A DNA stretch of 64,000 nucleotides, taken from positions 801 to 64,800 of the forward strand of contig DATHVN010000050.1 of assembly GCA_035461305.1 (NCBI GenBank). Reading direction: 5' to 3'. The translations under genes and the position numbers were made by a program. Shown here piece after piece: positions 481 through 5,934 of the stretch. The DNA comes from Euzebyales bacterium (GTDB lineage: Bacteria > Actinomycetota > Nitriliruptoria > Euzebyales > JAHELV01). Below the pieces are notes generated by a model. That model had not been told where the DNA came from and searched no databases. It saw only the letters and a list, made by a program, of their open reading frames with translations. Each line of letters opens with the position of its first letter. Within the stretch, counting starts at the first letter, position 1.

Positions 481-508
481 TGAGAGGACTCTCATGGGCG
501 TCTCATGG
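481..508 (+). promoter_or_regulatory. Operator-like motif, copy 1: TGAGAG-NN-CTCTCA palindrome overlapping two TCTCATGG octamers phased 11 bp apart
   Basis: TGAGAGGACTCTCATGGGCGTCTCATGG. It is 24/28 identical to 1885-1912 and ends 57 nt upstream of ATG 566. Confidence 0.5.
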
Positions 509-565
509 TCGCGCAATGCGCGCGACCGATCCTTGGGTCACGTTCAACCAACCGGAGGTTCGAAG

Positions 566-907
566 ATGATCGCTCGACTCGCCATCACCCTGCTGGTGGC
601 AGCAATCGCCGTGACCGGTGTCACATGGCTGACCTCGTCAGGGACCGCGACCGCGACCGACGAGGTCGCGACACTTCGCGAGGACGAGGACGGCGTCGTC
701 CTGGTCTCCGCAGCCGACGATGGCGACACGAACTCGAAGTCGAAGGCATCGAGGAGCAAAGACCGCTCGCGCAGCCGGGACCGCTCCTGCGACATGACCA
801 CCCGCGATCGCTCCTACTCACGCGACCGCTCGCGTGACCGCACCGGCGACCACAACACGCCTGACCGCTCGCGCAGCCGGGACCGCTCCCGCGACCGCAC
901 CGGCTGA
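566..907 (+). CDS. Small signal/anchor protein with an acidic linker and an Arg/Ser/Asp-repeat tail (DRSRSRDRS repeats)
   Basis: ATG 566 follows GGAGG (554-558). The N-terminus MIARLAITLLVAAIAVTGVTWL is hydrophobic. The tail reads ..SKSKASRSKDRSRSRDRSCDMTTRDRSYSRDRSRDRTGDHNTPDRSRSRDRSRDRTG. The DNA has an exact 27-nt internal direct repeat (761-787 = 863-889). Confidence 0.6.
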   Translation: MIARLAITLLVAAIAVTGVTWLTSSGTATATDEVATLREDEDGVVLVSAADDGDTNSKSKASRSKDRSRSRDRSCDMTTRDRSYSRDRSRDRTGDHNTPDRSRSRDRSRDRTG

Positions 908-920
908 GCCCCCGGTCCGT

Positions 921-953
921 GGGTGCCGGGCTTGTCCCGTCGGGCCGGCACCC
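921..953 (+). terminator. Hairpin between the RS-repeat gene and the kinase gene (possible terminator or attenuator)
   Basis: GGGTGCCGG (921-929) pairs with CCGGCACCC (945-953), a 9-bp GC stem with a 15-nt loop. There is no U tract. Confidence 0.35.
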
Positions 954-978
954 ACCGGTCCATTCGAGGAGGACGTGC

Positions 979-1856
979 ATGTCGCACAGTGACAGCTGGG
1001 ACCTCGCCCCCGGCGACGAGATCGCCCCCGGCCGCCGCGTCGTCGAGCCGCTGGGGCGCGGCGAGCGCTACCAGACCTATCTGGCCTTTGACGACCACCT
1101 CCTGACACAGGTGGTCGCCAAGGTGCTGCGCGCCGACCGGCGTGATGACCGCCGCGCGCGGCGCGGGCTCACCGCCGAGGCACAGCTCGTCGCGTCGGTG
1201 CGCCACCCCGTCATCGTCCGCGACTTCGGCGTGCGTCGCGACGGGCCGTGGCCCCACCTGTTGCTCGAGCACCTGGAGGGCCCGGCGCTGTCGAGCCTGC
1301 TGCGACGCCACGGCCCGCTGCCGCTGGCGCAGCTGGTGCCACTCGCGGTGCAGCTGGGCTCCGCCCTGCACTACCTGCGCCGCGAGGGCCTGGTCCACCT
1401 CGACATCAAGCCGCGCAACATCATCATGGGCGCGCCGCCGAGGCTGATCGACCTCAGCGTGGCGCACACGACCGCGCGGGCGGCACAGCTCGACCACCCC
1501 GTCGGCACCGACGCCTACATGGCACCCGAGCAGTGCCGGCCGACACCGGCAGTGCCGGTCGGCCCGCCGGCCGACATCTGGGGCTCGGTGCCACGCTGTT
1601 CGAGGCGGTCGCCGGCCGCCGCGCCTGGCCCGACGTCGACGGCTACCCCCAGACCGTCGACGGACCGGGCATGCTGCCGCCGGACACGCCGATGCCGCTG
1701 GTCGAGGTGATCTTCGCGTGCCTCGACCGCGATCCGGCGGCGCGTCCCGAGGCGGCCGAACTGGTCGACGCGGTCGAGCCGCTGCTGGCCGCGATTCCTC
1801 GGCGTCCCGTGCTCAGCCGGTTGCGCCCCCGCCTGGTCGGTGCCGGCCGCCGCTGA
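979..1856 (+). pseudogene. Ser/Thr protein kinase (Hanks type, kinase domain only), with one frameshift at a G run (1580-1583)
   Basis: ORF 919..1710 carries VAKVL (Lys), HLDIKPRNIIM (catalytic loop), DLS and GTDAYMAPEQ, then degenerates after ADIWG. ORF 1248..1856 continues as GLGATLFEAVAGRRAWPD..LDRDPAARP. The frames join if one G is added to GGGG 1580-1583. ATG 979 follows GAGGAGGA. Confidence 0.8.
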
Positions 1857-1884
1857 CGGCAACAGGACCGCTTCCGGGCGAACA

Positions 1885-1912
1885 TGAGAGAACTCTCATG
1901 TCCGTCTCATCG
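1885..1912 (+). promoter_or_regulatory. Operator-like motif, copy 2
   Basis: TGAGAGAACTCTCATGTCCGTCTCATCG. It has the same palindrome (1885-1898), and its two TCTCAT octamers start at 1894 and 1905, 11 bp apart. It ends 32 nt upstream of ATG 1945. Confidence 0.5.
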
Positions 1913-1944
1913 CTGTGACACGACGGGACGCGACCGTAGGTGCC

Positions 1945-2349
1945 ATGAGTGCACAGATCTACCGCCTGCTGCTCATCATGACGATCGTGCTGGGGATGGT
2001 CGCCGGGCTCTGGTTCCTGCCGCGTGGGTTCAGCTTCGGGTCGACCGTGCCACCGCAGCCGATCGAGCTGCGGTCGATGCCCACCATCGGGCCGACCGTG
2101 ACCCCTGACCCGGCGCCACCGTCGTCCGTGGACGACGACGTTGCGAACGACGATGATGGCGCGGACGACAGCGACGGCAGGCTCGACGACGCCGATGACG
2201 ACGGACGCACCTCCAGGCGCGCGGACCTGCGCGGGCGGCGGGTGGACGTGCCGGCCACCGGTGGAGGCGGCGTCGCGGACGATGACGCCGACCACGCCGG
2301 TGGCGACGACGATGACGGACTCGACGACGAGGACGATGACGACGACTGA
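1945..2349 (+). CDS. Small membrane-anchored protein with an extremely Asp-rich C-terminal tail
   Basis: MSAQIYRLLLIMTIVLGMVAGLWFL is a TM helix. The tail reads ..SSVDDDVANDDDGADDSDGRLDDADDDG...GGVADDDADHAGGDDDDGLDDEDDDDD. The start could also be GTG 1915. The 3' end overlaps the HK start. Confidence 0.55.
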   Translation: MSAQIYRLLLIMTIVLGMVAGLWFLPRGFSFGSTVPPQPIELRSMPTIGPTVTPDPAPPSSVDDDVANDDDGADDSDGRLDDADDDGRTSRRADLRGRRVDVPATGGGGVADDDADHAGGDDDDGLDDEDDDDD

Positions 2350-3866
2350 CGCCCATCGGGTCGAGTCGTCGCCGCGGGCCGTCCCGACGTCGGACACCGC
2401 CGCCGACCAGCCGCCGCGGGCCGGGCGGCCCCCGCGGCGGTCGCTGGGGTCCCTGCGGTCCCGTCTCGCCGGCGACGCAAGGACCCGCGTCCTCGCGTGG
2501 TTCGTGGCGGTCGTGGCGATCGCCGTCGTCGGGTCGGTGCTCGTGGGGCGGCAGGTCCTGCTCGGCCGCCTCGAGGCGCGCATCGACGCCGAGCTACGCC
2601 AGGAGGTCGAGGAGCTGCGTCGGCTGGCCGCGGGCGACGACCCCGCCACCGGCGAGCCGTTCGCCGGCGACGTCGAGCGCATCTTCGATCTGTACGTGCT
2701 GCGCAACGTCGCCTACCGCCAGGAGCGCGTGTTCTTCTACGTCGACGGTGCGCCCCACCGTCCGGAGCCGCTGCCGGTCGGCTACCGGCCGCCGCCCGAC
2801 GTCGAGCGGCGCTGGGCGGCGATCGACGCGCCGGAGCGGGACCGCTTCACGTCCGGGGTCGGGGTCGTCGACTACCTCGCGGTGCCGCTCCAGGAGGTCG
2901 GGCAGCAGCGCGGCGTCTTCGTGGTGGCCATCTACGGCGACGTCGAGCGCCGCGAGATCGCCCAGGTCGTGACGACGATGAGCGTCGTCGGCGTGATCGC
3001 CATCCTGCTCGCCGCCGGCATCGCCTGGTTCGGGGCGGGGCGCATCCTGGCGCCGATCCGCCGGCTCACCGAGACCGCCCAGGCGATCAGCGACCGCGAC
3101 CTGACGCAGCGGATCGAGGTCGAAGGCGACGATGACGTCGCCCGCCTGGGCCGGACGTTCAACGCGATGCTCGACAGACTGCAGGGCGCCTTCGCCAGCC
3201 AGCGCCAGTTCCTCAACGACGTCGGCCACGAGCTGCGCACGCCCATCACGATCGTGCGTGGTCACCTCGAGGTGTTCGGTGACGACCCGCAGGAGCGCCG
3301 TGAGACGGTCGCGCTGGTAGTCGACGAGCTCGAGCGGATGCGCCGCCTGGTCGACGACCTCGTGGTGCTCGCGCGGGCGGAGCAGCCGGACTTCCTGGAG
3401 CTTGCTCCCGTCGACGTGTCCGAGCTCGTCGGTGAGATCCTCCGCAAGGCCGAGCGCATCGGCCGACAGGTCGTGGGGGCTCGGGCGCACCGACGAGGGC
3501 GTGATCGTCGCCGACCGCCAGCGCCTGACCCAGGCGGTCATCCAGCTGGCGCAGAACGCTGTGGACCACACTGGCGAGGGTGAGCCGATCACGCTCGACG
3601 CGGTGCTGCGCGGTAGCGAAGCGCGGCTTTCTGTCCGCGACGCCGGCCCAGGGTTCGGCGGGACCGACCCGGAGCGGCTGTTCGACCGGTTCTTCGGTGA
3701 GCGCAGTGACGGGACCGGCCTTGGGCTGGCGATCGTGCGAGCCATCGCCGAGGCCCACGGCGGCAGCGCCAGCGCCCGCCACGCCGCGGGCGGTGGCGCG
3801 CTGGTCACCATCGCGGTCGCCCGTGACCCCCGCGACGCCGGCGGCGACTGGCACGGGGACGCGTGA
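2336..3866 (+). pseudogene. Sensor histidine kinase (2 TM, HAMP, HisKA, HATPase_c), with one frameshift near 3461-3464
   Basis: ORF 2141..3583 has TM1 VLAWFVAVVAIAVVGSVLVG, TM2, HAMP and the H-box FLNDVGHELRTPIT. ORF 3402..3866 has the N-box LAQNAVDHT, G1 VRDAGPGF and G2 GTGLGLAIV. The frames join as KAERIG-DRSWGLG if one C of GGCC is removed. The start at ATG 2336 is a guess. Confidence 0.8.
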
Positions 3867-4541
3867 TGGCACGGATCCTGGTGGTCGAGGACGAGGCGCG
3901 CATCGCATCGTTCCTGGTCAAGGGCCTCGGCGCGCAGGGCCATAGCGCCAGCGTCACCTACGGGCGTCGAGGCGCTCAGCAGGGCACGTGCCAGCGAGCC
4001 CGACCTGGTCCTGCTGGACCTCGGCCTGCCCGACATCGACGGGCTCGACGTGCTCACCTCGCTGCGGCGGTTCGCGACACGGTTGCCGGTGATCGTGCTG
4101 ACCGCCAGGGACGAGGTCGCCGACACCGTTGCGGCGCTCGACGCGGGTGCCGACGACTACCTGTCCAAGCCGTTCGCGTTCGACGAGCTGCTCGCGCGCA
4201 TCCGGGTGTGCCTGCGGGACGACCGGACCGGCGACTCGACCGTGCTGCGCTGCGGTGACATCGAGCTCGACATGCGCAGCCGCCAGATCGTCCGCGACGA
4301 CGAGACCTTCGAGCTGACCGCCAGGGAGTATGCGCTGGCCGAGGTGTTCTTTCGGCACCCGGGCCAGGTGCTGTCGCGCGAGCAGCTGCTGAGCAACGTC
4401 TGGGGCTACGACTACGACCCGGAGTCCAACGTCGTCGACGTGTACGTCGGCTACCTGCGCCGCAAGGTCGGACGTGACCGCATCGCCACCGTCCGCGGGA
4501 TGGGTTACCGCCTGATCGACGTTCAGCGGGGCGACGTGTAG
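3866..4541 (+). pseudogene. OmpR/PhoB-family response regulator, with one frameshift at a GGG run (3962-3964)
   Basis: ORF 3863.. reads MARILVVEDEARIASFLVKGLGAQGHSASVTY. A shifted frame gives GVEALSRARASEPDLVLLDLGLPDIDGLDVL, and ORF 4050..4541 holds the rest of the receiver plus the winged helix (..VDVYVGYLRRKV..VRGMGYRL). ATG 3866 overlaps the HK stop (TGATG). Confidence 0.8.
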
Positions 4542-4616: not shown

Positions 4617-5585
4617 ATGCCGACGCTGCGACCCGAGACCGTGGCGCAGTTCCGTCCGCTCGCCGAGCTCGTGCCCGAGTGGTGGACGACAGGATCGACG
4701 ACCGCCGCCGACGGCAGCCACCTGCACTGGACGGACACGGGCCGTGACGGCCCGCCGGTCGTCCTGCTGCACGGCGTGCAGGTCGACGGCCTCAGCTGGC
4801 AGCGCACGGCACAGGCGCTCGAGGGACGGCACCGCGTGGTCATGCCCGACCTGCGTGGTCACGGACGGTCGGGACGTGTGCGCGGCACCGTGGACGCGAC
4901 GACACTCGTCGATGACGTCCGCACGGTCCTCGCAGCGGCCGGGGTGCACCGCCCCGTCCTGGTCGGCCACTCCATGGGCGCCGACGTCGCGGGCCGCCTC
5001 GCGGCACAGGAGGAGGTGCGGGGGGTGGTGCTGGCCGACCCGGCTCTGCGTCCGATGCCGCCGGCGGCATTCGAGGTGGATGATCCGCCACGCTGGATGG
5101 CGGCGCTCTTCGACAGCCTGTGCGCGCTGGGCACGCAGCCGCACGCCGAGCGGATGGTGACGGGCCTGGACACGCTGCCACCCGGCGGCGAGGTCGACTG
5201 GCACGAGGCCGACTACGTCAGCTACGTCGAAGGCCAGTCGCGGTTCGACCTGGGCCTGTACCGCCACCTCGATCCCGACGCGCCACCGCTGGCCGCCTCG
5301 CCGGAGGTCATCGCGGCGATCGCCTGCCCGATCCTCCTGCTGACCGCCGGGCCGATACTGCCGGGCGCGGACATCGATGCCGACGTCGCCCCGCTCACCG
5401 CGCACTGGCGCCATGGCCGGCACGTCCACTTCGCCGACAGCGGGCACGCCATCCCGGCCGACCGGTTCGATCACTTCATCGACGTCGTGACCGGGTTCAT
5501 CGACGCGCTGCCGGCGGACCCCCGACGGCGGACGCTGACCCGGCGGCTGTGGATGGTGCGCACGAGGTCGCGCCGCAACCGCTAG
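4617..5585 (+). CDS. Alpha/beta-fold hydrolase
   Basis: HGVQVDGLSW, DLRGHGRS and the nucleophile elbow GHSMG. ATG 4617 follows GGAGGA. Confidence 0.8.
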   Translation: MPTLRPETVAQFRPLAELVPEWWTTGSTTAADGSHLHWTDTGRDGPPVVLLHGVQVDGLSWQRTAQALEGRHRVVMPDLRGHGRSGRVRGTVDATTLVDDVRTVLAAAGVHRPVLVGHSMGADVAGRLAAQEEVRGVVLADPALRPMPPAAFEVDDPPRWMAALFDSLCALGTQPHAERMVTGLDTLPPGGEVDWHEADYVSYVEGQSRFDLGLYRHLDPDAPPLAASPEVIAAIACPILLLTAGPILPGADIDADVAPLTAHWRHGRHVHFADSGHAIPADRFDHFIDVVTGFIDALPADPRRRTLTRRLWMVRTRSRRNR

Positions 5586-5671
5586 CGTGGTGGTCACGCG
5601 CGCCCCACGTCGGGCATCAAATTTCTCAAACGGAGTAACCCGGCATGCGTGCGTTCTCGATTGGAATGAGC

Positions 5672-5875
5672 ATGCCAGAAGGTACCGTCAAGTGGTTCAA
5701 CGCCGACAAGGGCTACGGGTTCATCAGCCCCGAGGACGGCGGCAATGACCTGTTCGTGCACTTCTCCTCGATCGTGGGCTCGGGCTACAAGAGCCTCGAC
5801 GACGGCCAGCGCGTGAGCTTCACCGTCACCGAGGGCCAGAAGGGCCCGCAGGCCAGCGACGTCCAGGCCTTGTAG
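5672..5875 (+). CDS. cspA: Cold-shock protein (CspA family)
   Basis: [34 protein letters not shown].., containing the RNP1/RNP2 motifs KGYGFI and VFVHF-like. Confidence 0.95.
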
Positions 5876-5934
5876 CGCCGCGACCACAGGACGTGCGGTC
5901 CGGCCCACGCGTCGGGCCGCCCGAAAGCACACGA

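What the first reader, a model, noticed from the sequence alone, without database searches (positions are those of the whole stretch)
481..1912. The same 28-nt operator-like motif precedes both transcription units of the kinase/two-component locus
481-508 (TGAGAGGACTCTCATGGGCGTCTCATGG) and 1885-1912 (TGAGAGAACTCTCATGTCCGTCTCATCG) are 24/28 identical. Each combines a TGAGAG-NN-CTCTCA palindrome with two TCTCAT-containing octamers whose starts are exactly 11 bp apart (490/501 and 1894/1905). That is one helical turn, the geometry typical of OmpR/PhoB-type winged-helix binding. Copy 1 ends 57 nt upstream of the RS-repeat protein gene, which is followed by the Ser/Thr kinase. Copy 2 ends 32 nt upstream of the poly-Asp protein gene, which is followed by the HK and RR. 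This suggests one regulator co-controls two small low-complexity envelope proteins together with two different signalling chemistries. The OmpR-family RR at 3866-4541 is the obvious candidate.
Basis: partly seen in the sequence, partly recalled or inferred. Interest (0 to 1): 0.65.

Follow-up and report, generated by a model that had tools for sequence, protein, structure and literature searches.

The report
Conserved response-regulator operator at two promoters
The repeated 28-nt motif is real and is the core of a promoter conserved across the phylum Actinomycetota, very probably the binding site of the neighbouring two-component response regulator, which would switch on both a sensor-kinase operon and a Ser/Thr-kinase operon, each led by a small exported low-complexity protein.

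Summary
The two 28-mers lie at 481-508 and 1885-1912 and are 24/28 identical. No such match is expected by chance, and no other site exists in the 64-kb window.

The motif is not a dispersed repeat. The strict pattern found 21 actinobacterial genomes from several classes and about 34 credible metagenome instances. Nearly all lie at one fixed promoter position.

The anatomy is as follows:
- an inverted half-site (ATGAGAG);
- two strong direct half-sites (TCTCAT) 11 bp apart;
- a weaker fourth half-site 11 bp further on;
- an invariant NANNNT -10 hexamer 10 nt beyond that;
- usually the start codon 6-7 nt later, which implies a leaderless mRNA.

The usual downstream genes are a small membrane protein with a poly-Asp tail, then orthologues of this window's histidine kinase and OmpR-family regulator. 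A second copy, often weaker, precedes an RD/SR-rich exported paralogue plus a Ser/Thr kinase in distant lineages. The two-unit layout is therefore ancient.

The palindromic core has the 7-2-7 geometry of the CusR box, and 5/7 bases per half-site are the same.

Binding by the regulator is inferred, not shown. In this strain the regulator, the histidine kinase and the Ser/Thr kinase are all frameshifted, so the circuit is probably dead here.

The parts
481..486 (+). Copy 1, half-site A (TGAGAG), inverted relative to B-D. The preceding base is T here, where 25/27 instances have A.
489..496 (+). Copy 1, half-site B (CTCTCATG). With A it forms the 7-2-7 palindrome.
500..507 (+). Copy 1, half-site C (GTCTCATG), 11 bp after B. 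Predicted position about -40 to -33.
512..517 (+). Copy 1, weak half-site D (CGCAAT), 11 bp after C. Only the A and the final pyrimidine fit the consensus yNyCAy.
528..533 (+). Copy 1, predicted -10 hexamer GATCCT, at motif columns 47-52 (A at 48, T at 52). The predicted transcription start is about A540, giving a 26-nt leader with GGAGG at 554-558.
   Evidence: inference for the start site
566..907 (+). Small membrane-anchored or exported protein with an RS/RD-repeat tail. It is the first gene of unit 1 and a lineage variant of the RD/SR/TN-rich family that precedes the Ser/Thr kinase in other Actinomycetota.
979..1856 (+). Minimal Ser/Thr kinase (Pkinase domain). The frame is broken near 1579 (G4 here, G5 in an intact strain).
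1885..1890 (+). Copy 2, half-site A (TGAGAG). With the preceding CA and half-site B it forms the perfect palindrome CATGAGAG-AA-CTCTCATG.
1893..1900 (+). Copy 2, half-site B (CTCTCATG).
1904..1911 (+). Copy 2, half-site C (GTCTCATC).
1916..1921 (+). Copy 2, half-site D (TGACAC), which fits yNyCAy at its last three positions. T1916 is C in other strains, which is the consensus base.
1932..1937 (+). Copy 2, predicted -10 hexamer GACCGT, 7 nt before the ATG at 1945. This predicts a leaderless mRNA.
   Evidence: inference
1945..2349 (+). Small single-pass membrane protein with a poly-Asp tail, the first gene of unit 2. It belongs to the family that follows the motif in most loci.
2336..3866 (+). 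HAMP/HisKA/HATPase sensor histidine kinase. The start may be ATG 2336, or a start near 2489 as called in relatives. The frame is broken near 3461 (G5 here, G4 in an intact strain).
3866..4541 (+). OmpR-family response regulator, the candidate binding protein. The frame is broken near 3954 (two G missing relative to an intact strain).

Best explanation
Each copy is the upstream activating region of a promoter that depends on the cassette's own OmpR-family response regulator.

Anatomy. Positions count from the predicted transcription start:
- a palindromic core cATGAGAG-NN-CTCTCATG at about -61 to -44 (half-sites A and B);
- a strong direct half-site C (GTCTCAT) at about -40 to -34;
- a weak half-site D (yNyCAy) at about -28 to -23;
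- B, C and D are phased 11 bp apart;
- a -10 hexamer NANNNT at -12 to -7, 10 nt after D;
- no -35 hexamer.

Inferred mechanism. The phosphorylated regulator first fills the symmetric high-affinity core. It then extends cooperatively over C and D into the -35 region, where it recruits RNA polymerase in the way PhoB does at pho boxes.

Outputs. One promoter drives the poly-Asp membrane protein, the histidine kinase and the regulator itself. That transcript is leaderless and gives positive autoregulation. The other promoter drives the RD/RS-rich exported paralogue and the minimal Ser/Thr kinase, through a 26-nt leader with a Shine-Dalgarno sequence.

What is shown: the anatomy, its conservation and its gene associations. 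What is inferred: regulator binding, activation rather than repression, and the transcription starts.

In this strain the regulator, the histidine kinase and the Ser/Thr kinase are frameshifted, so the sites are probably unoccupied relics of a recently inactivated circuit.
For: - Chance is excluded: 2 hits against 0.00 expected, and only two weight-matrix sites in 64 kb.
- The motif is conserved. Both copies are in the syntenic relative L001, and one copy is in L002 and L003. The strict pattern found 22 GTDB genome contigs, 21 of them Actinomycetota, from Thermoleophilia, Acidimicrobiia and several orders of Actinomycetes. It also found 41 metagenome instances.
- Columns not fixed by the search pattern are conserved in 27 instances. 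These are A at -1 (25/27), C/A at columns 34/35 (21/27 and 23/27), A at 48 (27/27) and T at 52 (26/27). The metagenome set replicates this independently, with A48 in 36/41 and T52 in 34/41.
- ATG or GTG lies 33-34 nt after the pattern in at least 15 of the genome-set instances and at columns 59/60 in 20 of 41 metagenome instances.
- Orthologues of the kinase and regulator follow the motif in most loci long enough to show them.
- A second site precedes the RD/SR-rich paralogue and the Ser/Thr kinase in L012, L015, L021, L022, L024, L027, L061 and L064.
- In L005 one palindrome serves two divergent promoters, each with its own C/D half-sites and -10 hexamer.
- Neither intergenic region of the window has a consensus sigma-70 promoter.
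- The regulator's recognition-helix segment SNVVDVYVxYLRxK is the same in all intact orthologues.
- E. coli CusR binds AAAATGACAAnnTTGTCATTTT, which has the same 7-2-7 inverted geometry (PMC11195947).
- Strain polymorphisms at 477, 535 and 1916 avoid the invariant columns.
Against: - No binding, footprint or transcription-start data exist for any member.
- The only RNA evidence is weak. Low-depth metatranscriptome contigs cover the small-protein gene of the Arthrobacter locus but do not define a 5' end.
- The regulator falls below every curated NCBIfam cut-off, so its DNA specificity cannot be transferred from a characterised relative.
- The strongest half-sites (A, B, C) lie upstream of or at the -35 position, while the promoter-proximal site D is weak. 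This differs from a classical pho box.
- In this genome the regulator is frameshifted.
- Instances found with a strict pattern cannot say how many orthologous loci lack the motif.
Confidence: 0.7

Rival explanations
1. The site binds the same regulator, but the bound regulator represses. It would occupy -61 to -23 and block RNA polymerase, giving negative autoregulation instead of activation.
For: The site overlaps the -35 region, a position compatible with occlusion. Some palindrome-binding family members repress at certain promoters; for example CopR limits pcoA2 activation (PMC11195947).
Against: No -35 hexamer is conserved, and the -10 hexamer is minimal (NANNNT). Such a promoter should be weak without an activator. 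The 10-nt gap between the last half-site and the -10 hexamer matches activator-dependent PhoB-type promoters (established knowledge).
Confidence: 0.1
2. The motif is recognised by another protein, either an unlinked transcription factor or an alternative sigma factor that reads TCTCAT as its -35 element. On this view the neighbouring regulator is only a co-regulated passenger.
For: Half-site C lies where a -35 element would lie. Some motif-bearing promoters have no kinase or regulator gene within the stretch held: L008, L011, L014 and L023. L008 has a divergent ECF-type sigma gene.
Against: An inverted half-site plus three to four 11-bp-phased repeats is the signature of a multimeric winged-helix regulator, not of a sigma factor. 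Across several actinobacterial classes and orders the only DNA-binding protein consistently linked to the motif is the OmpR-family regulator. The spacing from C to the -10 hexamer is 21 nt, too long for a -35/-10 pair.
Confidence: 0.1
3. The two copies are alike only because promoter and small-protein gene were duplicated locally and recently. The similarity would then carry no regulatory meaning.
For: The two downstream small proteins are paralogues. Both have a transmembrane helix, a short hydrophobic strand motif and a disordered charged tail. In this lineage copy 1 is as strong as copy 2, whereas in other lineages the second site is degenerate.
Against: The two-unit layout with two sites is found in distant lineages (L015, L021, L022, L061, L064), so the duplication is ancient and both sites have been kept. 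The flanks between the half-sites have diverged while the half-sites and the -10 positions have not.
Confidence: 0.04
4. The motif acts as RNA, as a hairpin in a leader or in a read-through transcript, or it is a dispersed or mobile repeat.
For: The palindrome can fold, with z about -2.1 for the 33-nt pieces. Copy 2 lies only 28 nt after the Ser/Thr kinase stop codon and could be transcribed by read-through.
Against: - The weaker second sites change one arm without a compensating change in the other, for example TGAGAA against GTCTCA and TAAGAG against TTCTCA.
- The longer regions are not clearly more stable than shuffles; z is -1.06 for copy 2.
- There is no Rfam match.
- The fixed distance to a -10 hexamer and start codon places the motif upstream of the predicted start.
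- There is one strict copy per genome hit.
Confidence: 0.02

Closest known systems
CusR box of the CusRS/PcoRS/CopRS heavy-metal two-component systems (AAAATGACAAnnTTGTCATTTT in E. coli; ATTCATnnATGTAAT in Pseudomonas; PMC11195947)
   Same: - The core is an inverted repeat of 7-nt half-sites separated by 2 nt.
- 5 of 7 bases per half-site are shared with the E. coli box (ATGAnAn / nTnTCAT).
- The site lies next to the regulator's own operon, and the regulon is very small.
- In L005 one palindrome serves divergent promoters, as at cusR/cusC.
- The regulator's best curated match is the heavy-metal regulator subfamily TIGR01387, and JGI's automatic names call many homologues CusR.
   Different: - The regulator scores 205.7 bits against a cut-off of 279.2, so it is not a member of that subfamily.
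- The half-site differs at two positions.
- One or two extra direct half-sites extend the site towards the -10 hexamer.
- The targets are small disordered exported proteins and a Ser/Thr kinase, not metal efflux or oxidase genes.
- There is no evidence that metal is the signal.
PhoB pho box and class II activation by OmpR/PhoB-family regulators (established knowledge; Streptomyces PhoP direct repeat units, PMC2275107)
   Same: - The direct repeats have 11-bp phasing.
- The array reaches the -35 region of a promoter that lacks a -35 hexamer.
- The last repeat ends 10 nt before the -10 hexamer.
- The operon is autoregulated.
   Different: - The half-site sequence differs (TCTCAT, against CTGTCAT in E. 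coli or GTTCACC in Streptomyces).
- The strongest units are distal, and one is inverted.
- The promoter-proximal unit is degenerate.
Small envelope accessory proteins induced by their own two-component system (CpxP with CpxAR, ZraP with ZraSR; established knowledge)
   Same: The first and best-conserved target of the operator is a small exported or membrane protein encoded next to the kinase and regulator. This suggests a feedback partner of the sensor.
   Different: - These proteins share no sequence or fold with CpxP or ZraP.
- They are single-pass or secreted proteins with long disordered poly-Asp or RD/SR tails.
- A second paralogue is linked to a Ser/Thr kinase.
- A feedback function has not been tested.

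Membership tests
OmpR/PhoB-family response-regulator operator at an activator-dependent promoter | Repeated half-sites phased about one helical turn (10-11 bp) apart | tested here: met
   Half-sites B, C and D start at motif columns 9, 20 and 31 in 27 instances. In the window they start at 490/501/512 and 1894/1905/1916.
OmpR/PhoB-family response-regulator operator at an activator-dependent promoter | The site overlaps or replaces the -35 region and lies about 10 bp upstream of a -10 hexamer | tested here: met
   Half-site D ends at column 36. NANNNT occupies columns 47-52, with A48 in 27/27 and T52 in 26/27, replicated in metagenomes. No consensus -35/-10 pair was found. The -10 hexamer and the start site are predicted, not mapped.
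OmpR/PhoB-family response-regulator operator at an activator-dependent promoter | A cognate OmpR-family regulator gene is linked to the site | tested here: met
   Trans_reg_C plus Response_reg domains lie at 3866-4541. Orthologues follow the motif in most loci.
OmpR/PhoB-family response-regulator operator at an activator-dependent promoter | The regulator binds the site specifically and in a phosphorylation-enhanced manner | not testable with these tools
   This needs EMSA, footprinting or DAP-seq.
CusR/CopR-type 'copper box' regulon | Palindromic box with 2-nt central spacer | tested here: met
   cATGAGAG-NN-CTCTCATG compared with ATGACAA-NN-TTGTCAT.
CusR/CopR-type 'copper box' regulon | The regulator belongs to the heavy-metal regulator subfamily (TIGR01387) | tested here: not met
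   It is the best hit, but at 205.7 bits against a cut-off of 279.2. The kinase scores 190 against 292.55 for TIGR01386.
CusR/CopR-type 'copper box' regulon | The targets are copper or silver resistance genes | tested here: not met
   The downstream genes are poly-Asp or RD/SR-rich small proteins, the kinase and regulator, and a Ser/Thr kinase. No metal genes lie in the locus.
Dispersed repeat / mobile element | Many copies per genome with no positional bias | tested here: not met
   There are two copies in 64 kb, both at promoters. Each GTDB genome hit has a single strict match. The offset to the -10 hexamer and start codon is fixed. The window's own whole genome could not be scanned.
Structured RNA element | Base pairs conserved with compensatory changes, or a match to a known RNA family | tested here: not met
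   There is no Rfam hit. Arm changes in the weaker sites are not compensated. The fold z-scores are unremarkable.
MprA / CseB envelope-stress regulators of Actinomycetota | The regulator is an equivalog, and the binding motif matches | tested here: not met
   CseB scores 186.9 bits against a cut-off of 350. The C. glutamicum MprA motif is TKTTAAGAAM (PMC12113857).

The most novel reading that the evidence does not exclude
The operator marks an undescribed envelope-signalling cassette found across the phylum. In this reading one CusR-like regulator drives, from a leaderless promoter, large amounts of a poly-Asp-tailed membrane protein that feeds back on the sensor kinase, acting as a cation or surface-charge buffer or as a co-sensor. 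In parallel it drives an RD/SR-rich exported paralogue together with a minimal Ser/Thr kinase that phosphorylates that paralogue. His-Asp and Ser/Thr signalling would then be hard-wired into one regulon through one DNA site.
Probability: 0.2. Interest if true: 0.75.

Novelty: new variant of a known kind. Interest (0 to 1): 0.55.

Why it matters
The motif gives an almost invariant operator about 40 nt long, within a promoter of about 60 nt, for a two-component system that is widespread in soil Actinomycetota. I found no description of that system in the literature held here. Because the site is so well defined, the regulon can be predicted in any genome. The regulator-DNA pair can be tested directly in cultured carriers such as Nocardioides, Arthrobacter, Pseudonocardia and Ornithinimicrobium.

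The motif also shows that a Ser/Thr kinase unit and a histidine-kinase unit share one cis element over long evolutionary distances. This is a clear, testable case of transcriptional coupling between the two signalling chemistries.

As a kind of thing, an autoregulated OmpR-family operator is ordinary. The interest lies in its degree of conservation, its composite architecture of palindrome plus direct repeats, and the unusual target proteins.

Tried and rejected
I used one pattern scan each of genome contigs and metagenome contigs instead.
- RNA evidence for the window gave nothing. The runs offered as possible RNA (X11, X12, X25, X26) gave low-depth contigs on both coding and non-coding parts and no 5' ends, so they are uninformative.
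- I considered an ECF-type promoter reading (GGAAC...CGTCT). It was rejected because the spacing does not fit and the -10 hexamer is of the NANNNT type.
- I recalled that MprA might bind TCTCA-like repeats, but could not verify this. The only MprA motif I found (C. glutamicum) is unrelated.
- Full-text searches for TCTCAT, TCTCATG or CATGAGA together with response-regulator terms found nothing relevant. A search for small Asp-rich partner proteins also found nothing.
- The strict pattern also returned about one genome hit (the archaeal L013, which is the same contig as L045) and about seven metagenome hits (L028, L033, L038, L045, L054, L055, L056) that lack the conserved flanking columns. I treat these as chance matches.
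- Pfam and NCBIfam give no family for either small protein, nor for the other proteins found downstream of the motif in L008 and L011.
Full report
**The observation.** The window reads TGAGAGGACTCTCATGGGCGTCTCATGG at 481-508 and TGAGAGAACTCTCATGTCCGTCTCATCG at 1885-1912. The two copies differ at four positions. Their TCTCAT hexamers start 11 bp apart. The pattern, allowing up to three mismatches, occurs only at these two places in 64 kb, with 0.00 expected from shuffles. A 57-column weight matrix scores the sites 57.8 and 64.2 bits. Nothing else in the window exceeds 9.6, and shuffled sequence stays below -6.

**The locus.**
- A redoxin gene (2-409) runs divergently on the minus strand.
- On the plus strand, unit 1 is a 113-aa protein with a membrane anchor and an RS/RD-repeat tail (566-907), followed by a bare Ser/Thr kinase domain (979-1856).
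- Unit 2 is a 134-aa single-pass protein with a poly-Asp tail (1945-2349), a HAMP/HisKA/HATPase kinase, and an OmpR-family regulator (3866-4541).
- Names attached to homologues place the organism near Euzebyales.

**Orthologous loci.**
- A syntenic metagenome contig, L001, has a kinase 92% identical to the window's. It carries the same six genes, all intact, and both motif copies.
- Two further relatives, L002 and L003, have kinases 77-79% identical. They lack the Ser/Thr kinase unit and carry one copy in front of the poly-Asp gene, kinase and regulator.

**Breadth in genomes.** I scanned one genome per species of GTDB with TGAGASNNSTCTCATGNNNKTCTCAT, a pattern for which I estimated one or two chance hits.
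- The scan returned 22 contigs.
- 21 of them are from Actinomycetota: Thermoleophilia, Solirubrobacterales, Acidimicrobiales, Pseudonocardia, Janibacter, Ornithinicoccus, Ornithinimicrobium, Arthrobacter and Nocardioides.
- Each contig has a single match.
- The one archaeal hit lacks every conserved flanking column and scores 24 bits, against 47-69 for the others. It is a chance match.

**Anatomy.** I aligned 27 instances on the motif. Several columns that the search pattern did not fix are nevertheless conserved:
- A at -1 in 25/27, preceded by C or G. This extends the first element to cATGAGAG, the exact inverse of CTCTCATG.
- C at column 34 (21/27) and A at column 35 (23/27). This is a degenerate fourth half-site, yNyCAy, 11 bp after the third.
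- A at column 48 in 27/27 and T at column 52 in 26/27. This is an actinobacterial-type -10 hexamer NANNNT at columns 47-52, 10 nt after the fourth half-site.

In at least 15 loci an ATG or GTG begins 33-34 nt after the pattern, which is 6-7 nt after the -10 hexamer. This is the signature of a leaderless mRNA.

Counted from that start, the half-sites lie as follows:
- A, inverted, at about -59 to -54;
- B at about -50 to -45;
- C at about -39 to -34;
- D at about -28 to -23.

No -35 hexamer is conserved, and a consensus sigma-70 scan finds none in either intergenic region.

In the window:
- Copy 2 has GACCGT at 1932-1937, 7 nt before ATG 1945.
- Copy 1 has GATCCT at 528-533. This predicts a start near A540 and a 26-nt leader carrying GGAGG.

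**Independent replication in metagenomes.** The same pattern in the JGI metagenome collection gave 41 instances on 39 contigs.
- A48 holds in 36, T52 in 34 and A(-1) in 32.
- A start codon lies at column 59 or 60 in 20.
- The seven that fail these columns are AT-rich or repetitive and look like chance matches.

**What follows the motif.**
- In the genome set, tblastn with the window's proteins finds orthologues of the kinase and regulator directly downstream in most loci long enough to show them. The regulator's C-terminal domain is 53-94% identical to the window's.
- The first gene is almost always a small protein with one hydrophobic N-terminal helix, a short P-[VI]-[VI]-[VIL]-like strand, and a disordered tail ending in runs of Asp.
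- In L017 and L019 the gene order is kinase, regulator, motif, small protein. The small-protein gene is therefore the constant target.
- In the metagenome set about 25 instances are of this type.

**The second transcription unit is ancient.** A weight-matrix scan of the fetched loci finds weaker second sites of 24-43 bits, far above the null.
- In L012, L015, L021 (Nocardioides terrigena), L022 and L024, the second site precedes a signal-peptide protein. Its tail reads ...KRDDD..VELVLVADDDD..TN..SRDRD.SRGDKTRDWTRDG..KKRDWS..NDRSRNDTR.
- In all but L012 this is followed by a Ser/Thr kinase about 50% identical to the window's.
- Strict copies of the motif in front of the same protein family plus the kinase occur in L027, L061 and L064.
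- The window's RS-repeat protein is a lineage variant of this family. Compare DEVATLREDEDGVVLVSAADDGDTN...SRDRS with DEALKRDDDSVELVLVADDDDDDTN...SRDRD.
- In L010 the Ser/Thr kinase, a further small protein and the poly-Asp gene each have a site.
- In L005 a single palindrome is shared by two divergent promoters. Each has its own C/D half-sites and its own -10 hexamer at the right offset. This argues that the symmetric A/B core is the primary binding unit.

**Who binds.**
- The only DNA-binding protein that travels with the motif across the actinobacterial classes and orders sampled is the OmpR-family regulator.
- Its recognition-helix segment SNVVDVYVxYLRxK is identical in all intact orthologues. 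The phospho-acceptor Asp and the conserved Lys are present.
- The regulator reaches no curated NCBIfam cut-off. Its best match is the heavy-metal regulator subfamily TIGR01387, at 205.7 bits against 279.2.
- Its nearest solved structures (PrrA, KdpE, PhoP, BasR, MtrA) are about equally distant.
- JGI's automatic annotation calls many homologues CusR.
- E. coli CusR binds AAAATGACAAnnTTGTCATTTT, and pcoE carries TGACAAnnTTGTCAT (PMC11195947). This is the same 7-2-7 inverted geometry as ATGAGAGnnCTCTCAT, with 5 of 7 bases per half-site identical.
- The operator is best described as a CusR-type palindrome extended by PhoB-type direct repeats that reach the -35 region.

**Mechanism.** The inferred course is as follows.
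1. The phosphorylated regulator fills the core.
2. It spreads cooperatively over C and D.
3. It recruits RNA polymerase to a promoter that has only a minimal -10 hexamer.

This gives positive autoregulation of the poly-Asp/kinase/regulator operon and co-induction of the RD/RS-protein/Ser-Thr-kinase operon.

The rivals are repression by the same protein, another factor or sigma, similarity by descent only, and an RNA or dispersed element. They are weighed in the Rival explanations section. The RNA reading is weak for four reasons:
- arm changes in the weaker sites are not compensated;
- the fold z-scores are unremarkable;
- there is no Rfam match;
- the motif lies upstream of the predicted start.

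**Expression.** No RNA data exist for the window's organism. For the Arthrobacter locus L019, contigs from four soil or rhizosphere metatranscriptomes, drawn from three studies, match at 99% or more. They cover only the small-protein gene and its 3' flank (5300-5894). They do not cover the adjacent regulator gene, and none extends upstream of the predicted start. This is consistent with the small gene being the main output. The depth is only 2-4, and contigs do not define 5' ends.

**State of the circuit in this strain.**
- The Ser/Thr kinase, histidine kinase and regulator each have one frame break at a short G run: near 1579, 3461 and 3954.
- Contigs of three DNA runs from three different studies (X1, X2, X4) show the same broken alleles, where they cover the sites.
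- A fourth run (X3) holds a strain with many SNPs and with +G, -1 and +GG at exactly these places, which restores all three frames.
- All relatives are intact.
- The breaks therefore look real and specific to this lineage, although systematic homopolymer error is not excluded.
- If the breaks are real, both operators are intact relics of a recently silenced cassette.
- The strain polymorphisms seen inside the promoter regions (477, 535, 1916) avoid the invariant columns.

**Earlier notes of this scan.** Two follow-up notes on other genomes, e1-1387849 and e1-759057, describe what appears to be the same cassette. It comprises a minimal Ser/Thr kinase, two exported acidic paralogues, a kinase and regulator, and a pho-box-like promoter. 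They agree with what I found independently. I treat them as leads, not as support.

**Novelty.** I found no paper on the motif, the small proteins or this two-component system in the library. An autoregulated OmpR-family operator is a known kind of thing. Three features are new:
- the composite architecture;
- its near-invariance across the phylum, at a fixed position in a promoter that is usually leaderless;
- its shared use by a histidine-kinase unit and a Ser/Thr-kinase unit.

Noticed in passing
window 1579, 3461, 3954: The Ser/Thr kinase, histidine kinase and regulator each carry one frame break at a G run: G4 for G5, G5 for G4, and G3 for G5. Contigs of DNA runs X1, X2 and X4, from three different studies, show no indel wherever they cover the three sites (X4 has no depth at 1579). 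A variant strain in X3 and all relatives are intact. This points to a real, lineage-specific triple inactivation, although homopolymer error is not excluded.
   Followed up: partly
window 921-953: The inverted repeat GGGTGCCGG...CCGGCACCC lies between the RS-protein stop codon and the Ser/Thr kinase start. The fold is -36.5 kcal/mol, but z is only -1.0 against shuffles. It could be an attenuator or a stabiliser that sets the small-protein to kinase ratio.
   Followed up: partly
window 2410: The strain in run X3 carries a 21-nt insertion (CCGCCGCGGGCCGGGCGGCCC), a tandem duplication. It lies in the region that is either the kinase N-terminal tail or the gap between the poly-Asp gene and the kinase gene.
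   Followed up: no
L008 1893 (also L051) and L006 2285: In two unrelated genomes the motif precedes a protein of about 150-230 aa with repeated 'G.RV.G.IQ' units that has no Pfam match. It may be a further regulon member. In L008 an ECF-type sigma gene lies divergently.
   Followed up: partly
L012 1390-4262: Here the motif precedes an ABC exporter of about 600 aa with fused permease and ATPase, followed by a Ser/Thr kinase. A second, weaker site follows at 4803, in front of an RD/SR-rich exported protein.
   Followed up: no
L011 1417 (Janibacter; also L058) and L023 1674 (also L039): The motif has correct -10 geometry in front of genes other than the usual cassette. One is a leaderless GTG open reading frame of about 230 aa. 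The other is a 154-aa signal-peptide protein. No family match was found.
   Followed up: partly
L019 5300-5894 (Arthrobacter sp. Bi83): Contigs from four soil or rhizosphere metatranscriptomes cover only the motif-driven small-protein gene and its 3' flank, not the neighbouring regulator gene.
   Followed up: partly
L004, L006, L009, L024 (MFD long-read MAGs): The kinase or regulator genes of these loci are split into several frames in tblastn and in translation. These are probably assembly indels, so frame breaks in such MAGs should not be read as pseudogenes without reads.
   Followed up: no
window 2336-2349: An in-frame ATG at 2336 would make the kinase gene overlap the poly-Asp gene's stop codon by 14 nt, which would allow translational coupling. 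Gene callers start close relatives about 50 codons later (458 aa), while other orthologues are 503-505 aa.
   Followed up: partly
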